64,000 bases of DNA, taken from Escherichia coli (lineage in GTDB: Bacteria; Pseudomonadota; Gammaproteobacteria; Enterobacterales; Enterobacteriaceae). This document shows, piece by piece, positions 15,001-18,000 of this stretch. The stretch's first letter is position 1, and every line of letters starts with the position of its first letter. The stretch lies in assembly GCF_024298765.1 (NCBI RefSeq), contig NZ_CP101210.1; one strand, given 5' to 3'. Made by a program: the position numbers.

Positions 15001-18000
15001 GCGTTAAAACGTTGGACCAGAGAATTCACCTCTTTACCCAGTTCCCCTTCCATAGAGTGCCAGAACGGAATGGTCGTCACTGCCTGTGCATTCCCCATTA
15101 ACGTCAGTCCGAGCACTAGTGCTGAAGCTGTATAATGTAACGGTTTCATCGTTTATCTCTCTTGCTTGTTGTACCTGATGAGCGAATTCACACGTTTCAT
15201 GCTCGTGGGATTAAATATCATGCCCGAATTGCAGAAAAATAACTTTTTTATTACATGTGTTAGACAGTAAAGTGTTAGAAAGATGACAGAGCAGTGACGG
15301 CACAGGTGAGACGTGGTGGATTGAATTTGATCCTGCTGTTGACAGTGAAATCCGCAAGACATGTCCGGCAGTGATCGTGAGCAATGACGCAGCAAACAGG
15401 AACCTCGCTCGAGTAGTCGTCGTTCCTCTGACCAGTAACACAGAGCGAGTGTATCCAAGTGAGGCTGTTGTGACCGTAGGTGTCAGAGCAGCAAAGCGAT
15501 TGTAGAGCAGATTATGGCGGCGGATAAGTCCTGTCTCAAAACACATATTGGCTCGTTGTCCAAAGCAGATATGTTGTCTGTTGAGGACGCAATCAAGATC
15601 CATCTTGGTTTACTGCGGTAACGCCATGTGAATCTGTCGGCTACCGCCATTAGTGACGGAATTTTCTGTGGGGCAGCGTACCAATGGCATTCGGTTAAGT
15701 TCTTGCTGGAGCATCAAAAGAGTTCCAGCGCGTTCTGGGCCGTACATATTTTCGTGGGTAACACCTCCCTGGCCTTACTCGCTGAGTCATACAACTGCGA
15801 TCGATTCAGATGCCATTTTGCAATCAGCCTCTCAGAAAGAGCGCAACAGAATGATTTTAAATGTTTTCCTGTTACCCGAATCAGTAAAGACAAGTACCTC
15901 ACTACGAGAAACAAGCAGTTTTTGAAATTAAAATTTTGTTTATTTCTACTACTACCGATGAAAACGTTATTATCTTAATAATTAATGTCATTTCAGGATA
16001 TCCATGTAAGGTTAAGTAATAATATATGAGCCTGTATTTTTATTTTACATCTTTCTCACTCTGTGAATGAAAATCTTCAATAGAAAATTTGATTTGAATA
16101 ATTTATATAACTCTTCTATATTACATCAATGCCGATAGAAATCGTAAAAAGCTTCGTTTTCATAAAAATCTCTTTCAATAATATTTGTAGCTGGACCAGC
16201 CCCTTGAAACGCCAGATAGTGGATGTATCTTAAAATAAGAGACAGGCTTGGATATATGTCTGACACTGGTTCTAATTTTGAGATGACTGGAACTTTGCCG
16301 GGGCTGGAGCTTCGTAAACGTAAAACTCCTCAGGAAAAAATTGGCATTATTCAGCAGACAATGGAGCCTGGCATGGCGGTGTCACATGTGGCGCGTTTGC
16401 GTTGTATTCAGCCCTGCCTGTTGTTTAAGTGGAAAAACAATCTCTGGAAGGAAGTCTCACTGCTGTTGCTTCAGGAGAGGGTGTCGTTCCTGCCTCAGAA
16501 CTGCCTGCCGCTATAAAACAAATAAAAGAGTTACAGCTCTTGCTGGGTAAAAAACCATGGAAGTTTAGATCCTCAAAGAAGTGGTGGAGTATGCGCAATC
16601 GCGAAAATGGATAGCGCATGTGCCCTTGTTACCTTCGGACAAGGAATAGCCCCGGTAAGCCGTGTTCTGGGCGATACTCAGGCGGCAGTCCCTAAATGAA
16701 GGACTACCGTTAGTGAATGCAAAGCGCGTTTACCGGATAATGAGCGAAAATATCCTGTTGTTACATGACAAACCATCACGACTGCAGCGGGAACATAAAG
16801 GCCGAATATCGGTAAGGAAAGCGACCAGCGTTGATGTTCTGATGGCTTTGAGTTCGGTTGCGATGATGGCGAAAAAGTCCGGGTTACGTTCGCCCTGGAC
16901 TGTTGCGATCGTGAAGCTATCGACTGGGCATCCAATACGGGAGGTTACAATAAAGCGACAGTGCAGGATGTGATGTTAGGAGCGATAGAAAAACTCTTTG
17001 GCGATAAAGTACCGGAACAGTCCATCCGGTGGTTGACAGATAACGGTTCAGCGTATAGAGCGCATGAAACACGGCAGTTCGCCAGAGAGTTGGATCTGGA
17101 GCCCTGCACAACGGCAATCAGCAGCTCTCAGAGTAATGGAATGGCAGAAAGGTTAGTGAAAACGATGAAGGAAGACTACATTGCGTTCATACCGAAACCG
17201 AATGTAATAACGGCATTGCATAACCTTGCATAGGCGTTCGAGAATTACAATGAGAACCACCCGCATAGTGCGTTAGGTTATCTCTCACCACGGGAATATC
17301 GATGTCAGCGGATAACGTCACCTTAGATGTAGCAGTTGCCAAACAGTGACTCAAGGGCAGGCTTACCGCATACGCTGACACTTAGCTGATCGACAGAATA
17401 TTATTAACAGTTCATCACTGAACGCTACATAATCAGAGTTGCATAAATAAAATGTTATGTTATAACATTTTAATACCAACATATGTTTTCGAATGTATAT
17501 GAATGTAATCAGAACTGTCATTTGTACATTAATTATAGTCCCGGTGGGACTACAGGCAGCGACCAGTCATTCTTCTATGGCTAAAGATACAATCACCATT
17601 GTCGCGACAGGAAATCAGAACACGGTATTTGAAACGCCGTCGATGGTCAGTGTCGTCACGAATGACACACCGTGGAGTCAGAATGCGGTTACATCGGCCG
17701 GCATGCTGAAAGGTGTTGCCGGTCTCAGCCAGACTGGTGCAGGACGGACCAATGGGCAGACCTTTAATCTACGCGGCTATGACAAAAGCGGGGTACTTGT
17801 TCTTGTTGACGGCGTCCGCCAACTCAGTGACATGGCAAAAAGCAGTGGCACTTATCTGGATCCGGCTCTTGTCAAACGTATCGAAGTTGTCCGCGGGCCA
17901 AACTCCAGTCTGTACGGCAGTGGCGGGCTGGGAGGTGTAGTGGACTTCAGAACTGCCGATGCAGCAGATTTCCTTCCCCCCGGAGAGACAAACGGTTTAA

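What the first reader, a model, noticed from the sequence alone, without database searches (positions are those of the whole stretch)
15296..15620. PemK/MazF-family toxin remnant without an antitoxin
The reading frame encodes most of a PemK/MazF-like toxin (…FDPAVDSEIRKTCPAVIVSNDAANRN…VVPLTSN…) but the start is disrupted, there is an internal frameshift, and the position where the antitoxin gene should lie is occupied by the ugpB promoter. It marks a decayed toxin-antitoxin locus and a recombination junction.
Basis: seen in the sequence. Interest (0 to 1): 0.3.

Follow-up and report, generated by a model that had tools for sequence, protein, structure and literature searches.

The report
Dead MazF/PemK toxin gene remnant
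This is the broken leftover of a toxin gene from a toxin-antitoxin pair, fused to a stray copy of a phosphate-scavenging gene inside a mobile island of E. coli; it is an ordinary genomic fossil with no sign of function.

Summary
Window 15305-15621 (+) carries codons about 4/5 to 108 of a 108-codon MazF/PemK-type toxin gene. A frame-corrected translation matches Pfam PF02452 over 106 of 109 positions, E 2.3e-22.

Three lesions were placed:
- A 5' breakpoint at 15305-15310 removed the start codon, the promoter and the whole antitoxin gene.
- A 1-nt deletion in the codon for Gly63 (15482-83) gives a premature stop at 15503-05.
- Ten strongly conserved residues are substituted, including Cys at the catalytic-arginine position.

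Left of the breakpoint lies a 1.53-kb block (13778-15310), 93% identical to the K-12 ugpB gene and its Pho-box promoter. It is a second, orphan ugpB copy inside a selC-associated island full of insertion sequences, not the native ugp operon.

Intact relatives (at most 82% amino-acid identity) always have a 76-87-aa antitoxin gene overlapping the toxin start by 14 nt. No such gene exists anywhere in the 64-kb window.

About 195 of 5426 complete E. coli genomes carry the same remnant with the same lesions, so sequencing error is excluded. NCBI's annotation pipeline (PGAP) already labels it PemK/MazF. Interest is low.

The parts
13778..15310 (-). Block homologous to the K-12 ugpB region (orphan second ugpB copy with 55 nt downstream and 161 nt upstream)
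   Evidence: blastn against K-12: window 13778-15310 aligns at 93.15% over 1533 nt with one gap. The ugpB ORF 13833-15149 is intact, 425/438 aa identical to K-12 UgpB.
15150..15310 (-). ugpB upstream/promoter DNA with Pho-box-like heptamers (CTGTCAT at 15283-15289 on the minus strand, followed at 11-nt spacing by CTAACAC, CTGTCTA, ATGTAAT)
   Evidence: Alignment to the K-12 ugpB-livF intergenic region. Heptamers read directly from the sequence. ugpBAECQ is a PhoB-activated operon with Pho boxes (PMC4447250).
15305..15310 (+). Breakpoint: GGTGAG, shared by the ugpB-upstream parent (K-12: GGTGAG) and by intact toxin genes (GGT GAA, Gly4-Glu5)
   Evidence: Anchored comparison of the window, K-12 and five intact toxin loci. 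K-12 homology ends at 15310. Toxin homology starts at 15305-15308.
15308..15483 (+). Toxin remnant, first frame: codons 5 to about 63 of a 108-codon mazF/pemK gene
   Evidence: tblastn residues 5-69 to 15308-15502, 78% identity; Pfam PF02452.
15362..15364 (+). TGT (Cys) at the position of the conserved Arg of the R-P motif (Arg23 in the 108-aa homologues)
   Evidence: Arg in 118 of 120 homologues.
15482..15483 (+). Site of a 1-nt deletion (ancestral GGT GGT CAG, now GGT G-T CAG) that shifts the frame
   Evidence: DNA alignment with the intact plasmid gene. Homologues read VTVGGQSSKA. Frames located.
15503..15505 (+). Premature stop (TAG) in the shifted first frame
15484..15621 (+). Toxin remnant, second frame: codons 64-108 plus the original stop (TAA 15619-21)
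   Evidence: tblastn residues 64-108 to 15484-15618, 71% identity. The 35-aa ORF alone hits PF02452 positions 82-108 weakly.
15625..15674 (+). Short non-coding block also found downstream of the intact toxin on E. coli C5 plasmid B. This is the probable 3' end of the toxin-antitoxin-derived fragment.
   Evidence: blastn: 50 nt at 78%, E 1.7e-5 in a small search space; alignment.
15675..16164 (.). Unassigned DNA between the remnant and an IS3-family pseudogene. The last 260 nt are 25% G+C.
   Evidence: No plasmid match before about 16164. No Pfam or NCBIfam hit for the 116-aa ORF 15628-15978. G+C content.

Best explanation
Window 15305-15621 is a non-functional fossil of the toxin gene of a mazEF/pemIK-type type II toxin-antitoxin module. 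The ancestral module was a 76-87-codon antitoxin gene overlapping by 14 nt a 108-codon endoribonuclease toxin gene. An illegitimate recombination event, at a 5-6-nt microhomology GGTGA(G), joined toxin codon 4/5 to the upstream end of a foreign 1.53-kb ugpB fragment. In one step this removed the module's promoter, the whole antitoxin gene, the ribosome-binding site and the toxin start codon. Such a deletion is tolerable because it silences the toxin at the moment the antitoxin is lost (this point is inferred). The silenced gene then drifted. It acquired a 1-nt deletion in a GGTGGT repeat at codon 63, giving a stop 7 codons later, and substitutions at ten otherwise strongly conserved residues, among them Cys at the catalytic-arginine position. 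In some lineages it decayed further, with a 6-bp duplication in one and an IS3 insertion in others. It makes no toxin and needs no antitoxin. It is carried passively in a selC-associated, insertion-sequence-ridden genomic island found in about 3.6% of complete E. coli genomes, many of them from poultry or human isolates. Shown: the homology, the lesions, the junction, the absence of an antitoxin and the population distribution. Inferred: the order of events and the lack of expression.
For: - Family match: reconstructed protein hits PF02452 at positions 3-108 of 109, E 2.3e-22. There are 3433 homologues with E<=1e-10, and 95 of the 120 listed are 108 aa.
- Two-frame tblastn match, E 2e-38.
- Canonical organisation in intact relatives: an upstream 76-87-aa gene overlapping the toxin start by 14 nt, in E. 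coli C5 plasmid B and in 8 metagenomic or genomic loci. Other plasmid hits are annotated 'addiction module antitoxin'.
- No antitoxin homologue anywhere in the window.
- K-12 ugpB homology runs exactly to 15310, with microhomology at the junction.
- No in-frame start codon and no sigma-70-like site on the + strand upstream.
- 1-nt deletion and premature stop.
- The remnant departs from 10 of 80 strongly conserved columns, against a mean of 1.88, sd 1.41, maximum 6 for 120 intact homologues.
- Arg to Cys at the catalytic-arginine position.
- Identical lesions in 193 genomes at >=99% identity, and the junction in 196 genomes.
- Further decay: 6-bp duplication in BEN2908; IS3 truncation at 15573 in four genomes.
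Against: - No expression data are available, so absence of a transcript or peptide is inferred from sequence only.
- PGAP annotates two short CDSs here (51 and 35 aa) rather than a pseudogene. The first uses a non-canonical ATC start, so this is weak evidence for coding.
- Arg to Cys is also present in 2 of 120 full-length homologues, so on its own it does not prove inactivation.
- The 120 homologues were chosen as best hits to the remnant and define the consensus, which inflates the contrast in conserved-site departures somewhat.
- The true parental sequences of the junction are unsampled. The closest intact toxin is only 82% identical and the donor of the ugpB fragment was not found. The microhomology is therefore inferred from relatives.
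Confidence: 0.93

Rival explanations
1. The lesions are sequencing or assembly errors and the genome really holds an intact toxin (with or without an antitoxin).
For: None found. Single-base indels are a common error type in some assemblies (general knowledge).
Against: 193 complete genomes from different laboratories and platforms carry the region at >=99% identity over its full length with the same length. 196 carry the junction. The loss of the antitoxin and start codon is a breakpoint between two unrelated homology blocks, not an indel.
Confidence: 0.01
2. A truncated product is still made and has a function. One candidate is the 44-51-aa N-terminal fragment or the 35-aa C-terminal ORF that PGAP calls as CDSs. 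Another is the remnant DNA serving as a regulatory upstream element or extra promoter for the orphan ugpB copy.
For: PGAP lists two CDSs, 15350-15505 and 15514-15621. ORFs starting with GTG at 15371 and ATG at 15514 exist. A sigma-70-like match (10 of 12) lies on the minus strand at 15539-15511, pointing towards ugpB. The sequence is nearly invariant among carriers.
Against: A MazF fold cannot form from either fragment alone, because each covers less than half of the PF02452 profile. The promoter-like count in the region (4) is not above the shuffled expectation of 3.4 +/- 1.7. Near-identity among carriers holds for the flanking DNA in the same searches, which points to recent common descent of the whole segment rather than selection on this piece. 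Four genomes tolerate an IS3 insertion that removes the 3' end and BEN2908 tolerates a 6-bp duplication. Conserved-site substitutions indicate relaxed constraint.
Confidence: 0.05
3. The similarity to PemK/MazF is fortuitous or reflects a different, non-toxin SH3-like protein.
For: None.
Against: E 2.3e-22 to PF02452, well above the curated cut-off (79.7 against 23.1 bits). About 80% identity to thousands of 108-aa proteins that carry PF02452 and sit next to antitoxin-sized genes. The nearest solved structures are MazF endoribonucleases.
Confidence: 0.01

Closest known systems
108-aa MazF/PemK toxin with a 76-aa antitoxin on E. coli strain C5 plasmid B (NZ_CP010124.1, 51110-51653; toxin WP_061358720.1)
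   Same: Same subfamily: 77.6% nt identity and about 75% aa identity across the two frames. Same length register from codon 5 to the stop. A 50-nt block downstream of the toxin is also shared.
   Different: The plasmid copy is intact, has an ATG start and an overlapping upstream antitoxin gene, and sits next to an IncF-type repA. The window copy lacks codons 1-3/4, the antitoxin and the promoter, and has a frameshift and Cys at Arg23.
Widespread proteobacterial 108-aa MazF subfamily (for example on Xylella fastidiosa pXF51 and on Azotobacter, Hydrogenophilus and Sulfuricystis plasmids; many metagenomic contigs)
   Same: 76-82% aa identity over the whole remnant. Conserved motifs WWVEFDP, RKTRPAVIVSNDAANRNL, VVPLTSNT and KAMADQIMAADK.
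   Different: All are intact and paired with a 76-87-aa upstream gene. The remnant departs from them at 10 of 80 strongly conserved positions.
Mycobacterium tuberculosis MazF9 (PDB 5HJZ, 6KYS/6KYT), the nearest solved structure
   Same: Alignable end to end (remnant 1-102 to chain residues 7-117), E 1e-14. The R-P motif and the (V/L)T-S-N motif are in register.
   Different: Only distant identity, with two insertions in MazF9. MazF9 has Arg where the remnant has Cys.
E. coli chromosomal MazF (mazEF) and Kid/PemK of plasmids R1/R100
   Same: Same Pfam family. 25% identity to E. coli MazF over 99 residues, E 1e-9 pairwise. NCBIfam MazF equivalog hit at 36 bits, below its 120-bit cut-off.
   Different: Different subfamily: it is not a copy of mazF, chpBK or pemK. 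The cognate antitoxin of the intact relatives has no Pfam hit and only a weak, sub-threshold NCBIfam match to a MazE-family antitoxin model.

Membership tests
PemK/MazF toxin family (Pfam PF02452) | Significant full-length match to the family profile | tested here: met
   The frame-corrected translation scores 79.7 bits (cut-off 23.1), E 2.3e-22, at profile positions 3-108 of 109.
PemK/MazF toxin family (functional member) | Uninterrupted ORF of about 100-120 codons with a start codon | tested here: not met
   No ATG, GTG or TTG between TGA at 15284 and 15371. A 1-nt deletion at 15482-83 gives a stop at 15503-05.
PemK/MazF toxin family (functional member) | Catalytic arginine of the R-P motif (Arg29 in E. 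coli MazF, Arg25 in B. subtilis MazF and in Kid; from established structural and biochemical work, cited from memory) | tested here: not met
   Cys (TGT 15362-64) aligns with that Arg. The position is Arg in 118 of 120 homologues. The conserved Thr/Ser of VPLTS is retained.
Type II toxin-antitoxin module (mazEF/pemIK type) | Antitoxin gene immediately upstream of, or overlapping, the toxin gene in one operon | tested here: not met
   It is present in 9 of 9 intact relatives examined. In the window that position is ugpB promoter DNA. No antitoxin homologue exists in the 64 kb.
Type II toxin-antitoxin module (mazEF/pemIK type) | Own promoter upstream of the antitoxin, autoregulated by the toxin-antitoxin complex | tested here: not met
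   The upstream DNA is replaced at 15305-15310. No sigma-70-like site lies on the + strand between 15100 and 15500.
PemK/MazF toxin family (functional member) | Sequence-specific endoribonuclease activity and growth inhibition relieved by the antitoxin | not testable with these tools
   This requires expression and RNA-cleavage assays.

The most novel reading that the evidence does not exclude
The most novel reading not excluded is that the toxin remnant, or the junction it forms, has been co-opted as upstream regulatory DNA for the orphan, Pho-box-bearing ugpB copy. The minus-strand promoter-like site at 15539-15511 would be one candidate element. Under this reading, carriers of the selC island would express an extra glycerol-3-phosphate-binding protein under altered control. 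A variant of the same idea is that a short peptide from the remnant is expressed.
Probability: 0.04. Interest if true: 0.3.

Novelty: already known. Interest (0 to 1): 0.08.

Why it matters
It matters little on its own. Decayed toxin-antitoxin genes are common in genomic islands, and the public annotation already labels this stretch PemK/MazF.

Three modest points of value remain:
- It is a clean worked example of how a toxin-antitoxin module can be lost safely. The breakpoint lies inside the toxin gene, so toxin and antitoxin were disabled in the same event.
- It marks a junction that can serve as a lineage marker for this selC island. The island is present in about 3.6% of complete E. coli genomes, many of them from poultry or human isolates.
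- It flags an annotation inconsistency: two short 'CDSs', one with a non-canonical start, should be a single pseudogene.

Tried and rejected
- **Search for a closer intact ancestor.** blastn against 5426 complete E. coli genomes found only one diverged intact copy, on C5 plasmid B at 77.6%. 72,556 plasmids gave 16 hits, all at or below 78%. Among 5.8 billion proteins the best hit was 82% identical. No near-identical intact gene is sampled.
- **Search for the donor of the ugpB fragment, or an intact pair at this position in related species.**
  - No native E. coli ugpB upstream region is closer than 88% to the island copy.
  - An island-specific 24-mer next to the junction had 0 hits in 100,044 species representatives.
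  - A degenerate 25-mer tolerant of K-12/island differences hit only one E. coli genome of the K-12 type.
- **An early idea, rejected.** I first read 'KDDRAVTAQ' and the GTG at 15294 as the antitoxin C-terminus and the ancestral toxin start with a second frameshift. That stretch is homologous to the K-12 ugpB upstream region up to 15310, so the resemblance is chance.
- **Repeats or insertion-sequence ends at the junction.** None were found.
- **Rfam.** Only tRNA-Sec in the window.
- **Literature.** The paper describing the selC island AGI-3 of strain BEN2908 (PMC1347334) is not held. The tkt1-island and BEN2908 genome papers do not mention this remnant or the ugpB copy.
- **Structure prediction.** Not run, because a model of a frame-corrected pseudogene would not change the verdict.

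Full report
**1. What is in the sequence**

Between 15287 and 15621 on the + strand, two reading frames together spell nearly all of a PemK/MazF-type toxin.
- The first frame reads ...GETWWIEFDPAVDSEIRKTCPAVIVSNDAANRNLARVVVVPLTSNTERVYPSEAVVTVG. It then leaves the family sequence and stops at TAG 15503-05.
- The second frame reads QSSKAIVEQIMAADKSCLKTHIGSLSKADMLSVEDAIKIHLGLLR and stops at TAA 15619-21.

Joined with one restored base, the 111-residue translation (seven upstream frame-A codons plus the 104 toxin-derived residues) matches Pfam PF02452 (PemK_toxin) at profile positions 3-108 of 109, with 79.7 bits and E 2.3e-22. An intact plasmid toxin aligns by tblastn as residues 5-69 at 15308-15502 and residues 64-108 at 15484-15618 in a different frame, E 2e-38.

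**2. The three classes of lesion**

*(a) 5' truncation.*
- The DNA upstream of the remnant is homologous to the K-12 ugpB region. blastn gives one block, window 13778-15310, 93.15% identical over 1533 nt.
- That block ends at GGTGAG (15305-15310).
- Intact toxin genes read ATG-AAA-CGC-GGT-GAA-GTG-TGG-TGG at their start. GGTGA(G) is therefore common to both parents, and the breakpoint lies inside these 5-6 bases, at toxin codons Gly4-Glu5.
- Everything 5' of that point is gone: codons 1-3/4, the ribosome-binding site, the antitoxin gene and the promoter.
- Frame A has no ATG, GTG or TTG between an upstream TGA (15284-86) and GTG at 15371.

*(b) Frameshift.*
- Homologues read VTVGGQSSKA.
- The window has GTA GGT G-T CAG AGC AGC. 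One base of a GGT-GGT repeat is missing at 15482-83, and a stop follows seven codons later.

*(c) Substitutions.*
- Among 80 alignment columns that are at least 90% conserved in the 120 best homologues, the remnant departs at 10.
- The homologues themselves depart at 1.88 on average (sd 1.41, maximum 6).
- Positions below are numbered along the 104-residue remnant.
- The departures include Met to Ile (position 65) and Asp to Glu (position 67) at columns invariant in the homologues, plus Gly12Asp, Arg76Cys and Pro103Leu.
- They also include Arg to Cys (TGT 15362-64) in the R-P motif.
Arg29 is known from structural and biochemical work to be the catalytic arginine (my knowledge).
- Caveat: 2 of the 120 full-length homologues also have Cys there, so this change alone is not proof of inactivation.
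- Caveat: the comparison set was selected by similarity to the remnant.

**3. What an intact module looks like**

- The nearest DNA relative in E. coli is on plasmid B of strain C5. It has a 76-codon gene (MHKRMTITLDEAVYEGLY...) overlapping by 14 nt a 108-codon toxin gene, beside an IncF-type repA.
- Eight further loci encoding two other intact homologues show the same arrangement: a 76-87-aa gene ending 14 nt inside the toxin gene. These loci lie both on plasmid-like contigs and on contigs of 0.25-2.35 Mb that are presumably chromosomal.
- Other plasmid hits are annotated 'addiction module antitoxin'.
- The antitoxin has no Pfam hit. It has only a weak match to an NCBIfam MazE antitoxin model (21.9 bits, below its cut-off).
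- tblastn with this antitoxin finds nothing in the 64-kb window (best E 4.0).
- A 50-nt non-coding block just after the toxin stop (15625-15674) is shared with the C5 plasmid module. The toxin-antitoxin-derived fragment therefore spans about 15305-15675.

**4. Context**

- The window contains tRNA-Sec (selC) at 35162-35256 on the minus strand, with an integrase-sized ORF next to it (33678-34862).
- Coordinates below about 35160 are a mosaic island. In the near-identical stretch of APEC IMT5155, the annotation lists:
  - IS110, IS3, IS66, IS91 and IS1 remnants;
  - PTS and transketolase genes;
  - a YadA-like adhesin;
  - a TonB-dependent receptor;
  - an autotransporter.
- The ugpB next to the remnant is therefore not the native ugp operon. 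It is an orphan second copy, intact and 425/438 aa identical to K-12 UgpB.
- It has no ugpA downstream. K-12 homology stops at 13778, inside the REP element (a repetitive extragenic palindromic sequence) that follows ugpB, and an IS110-family pseudogene begins there.
- Its upstream 161 nt keep the Pho-box-like heptamers: CTGTCAT at 15283-89 on the minus strand, with three more at 11-nt spacing. ugpBAECQ is a PhoB-activated operon (PMC4447250).
- No native E. coli ugpB upstream region is closer than 88% to this copy. Two scans of species-representative genomes did not reveal a donor.

**5. Population evidence**

- Of 5426 complete E. coli genomes, 195 match the remnant. 193 do so at >=99% identity over the full length. 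One (BEN2908) has an extra 6-bp tandem duplication, GTGTCA, that does not restore the frame. One is the diverged intact plasmid copy.
- The junction itself (15161-15312) is present at >=99% in 196 genomes.
- In four genomes an IS3-family element cuts off the 3' end at 15573.
- Sequencing error is therefore excluded, and the remnant continues to decay in some lineages.
- PGAP annotates the stretch as two short CDSs: 'type II toxin-antitoxin system PemK/MazF family toxin' at 15350-15505 (starting at ATC) and 'hypothetical protein' at 15514-15621. The family assignment is thus already public, although the pseudogene status is not marked.

**6. Mechanism**

- The best-supported account is passive decay.
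- A single illegitimate recombination, at a short microhomology, removed the antitoxin and the toxin's translation start together.
- This is the kind of deletion a cell can survive, whereas loss of the antitoxin alone would free an active RNase (inference from the established biology of type II toxin-antitoxin modules).
- The frameshift and the conserved-site substitutions then accumulated without constraint.
- Nothing suggests expression. There is no start codon, and there is no sigma-70-like site on the + strand upstream. The promoter-like count for the region is at the shuffled expectation.
- No structured RNA family is present, and there are no repeats or insertion-sequence ends at the junction.

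**7. Comparison and membership**

- By descent it belongs to the PemK/MazF family, in a 108-aa subfamily widespread in beta- and gammaproteobacteria. The nearest solved structure is MazF9.
- It is not mazF, chpBK or pemK of E. coli.
- As a functional member it fails every testable criterion: intact ORF, catalytic Arg, adjacent antitoxin and own promoter.

**8. Verdict**

This is an ordinary, already-annotated kind of feature: a toxin pseudogene at a junction in a pathogenicity-type island. Novelty: already known. Interest: about 0.08.

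Noticed in passing
window 13778-15310 (ugpB ORF 13833-15149, minus strand): An orphan second copy of ugpB sits inside the selC island. It is intact, 97% aa and 93% nt identical to K-12 ugpB, and keeps its Pho-box region, but has no ugpAECQ. No native E. coli locus is closer than 88% in the upstream segment and no donor species was found. It could be a functional extra glycerol-3-phosphate-binding protein.
   Followed up: partly
window 12697-13778: An IS110-family transposase pseudogene abuts the ugpB fragment. K-12 homology starts inside the REP element that follows ugpB (…CGGCCTACACGCGATG…). This fits the known preference of some IS110-family elements for REP sequences (from memory) and suggests the insertion sequence entered the donor's ugpB-ugpA spacer.
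   Followed up: partly
window 35162-35256 (minus strand) and 33678-34862 (minus strand): tRNA-Sec (selC) lies beside an adjacent 394-aa ORF of integrase size. This marks the island's attachment end. Core-like genes resume to the right. The ORF was not checked against any family.
   Followed up: partly
window 15350-15505 and 15514-15621: RefSeq/PGAP annotates the remnant as two separate short CDSs rather than one pseudogene. The first starts at ATC here, and at ATT 15320 in BEN2908. This is an annotation inconsistency.
   Followed up: yes
L003 (BEN2908) at the position equivalent to window 15481-15482: Strain BEN2908 carries a 6-bp tandem duplication (GTGTCA) exactly at the frameshift site. The frame is not restored.
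   Followed up: yes
L014 (strain AH25) at the position equivalent to window 15573: In four complete genomes an IS3-family element truncates the 3' end of the remnant, and a BRO-N domain gene follows.
   Followed up: partly
window 15901-16164: A 260-nt stretch of only 25% G+C lies between the remnant and an IS3-family pseudogene (from about 16165). It has no database match and the 116-aa ORF 15628-15978 has no family hit. Its origin is unknown.
   Followed up: partly
window 17493-20273: An intact 656-aa TonB-dependent receptor gene is followed by a DUF4198 gene, flanked by insertion-sequence remnants. This may be a metal or haem uptake pair carried by the island.
   Followed up: no
proteins P0005 and P0058: Two full-length 108-aa homologues from metagenomes also have Cys at the catalytic-arginine position (RKTCPAV). 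They may be attenuated or inactivated toxins, or the position may be less essential in this subfamily.
   Followed up: no
window 15511-15539 (minus strand): A sigma-70-like match (TTGAGA, 17 nt, CATAAT; 10 of 12) lies inside the remnant and points towards ugpB. The count of such sites in the region is at chance level.
   Followed up: no
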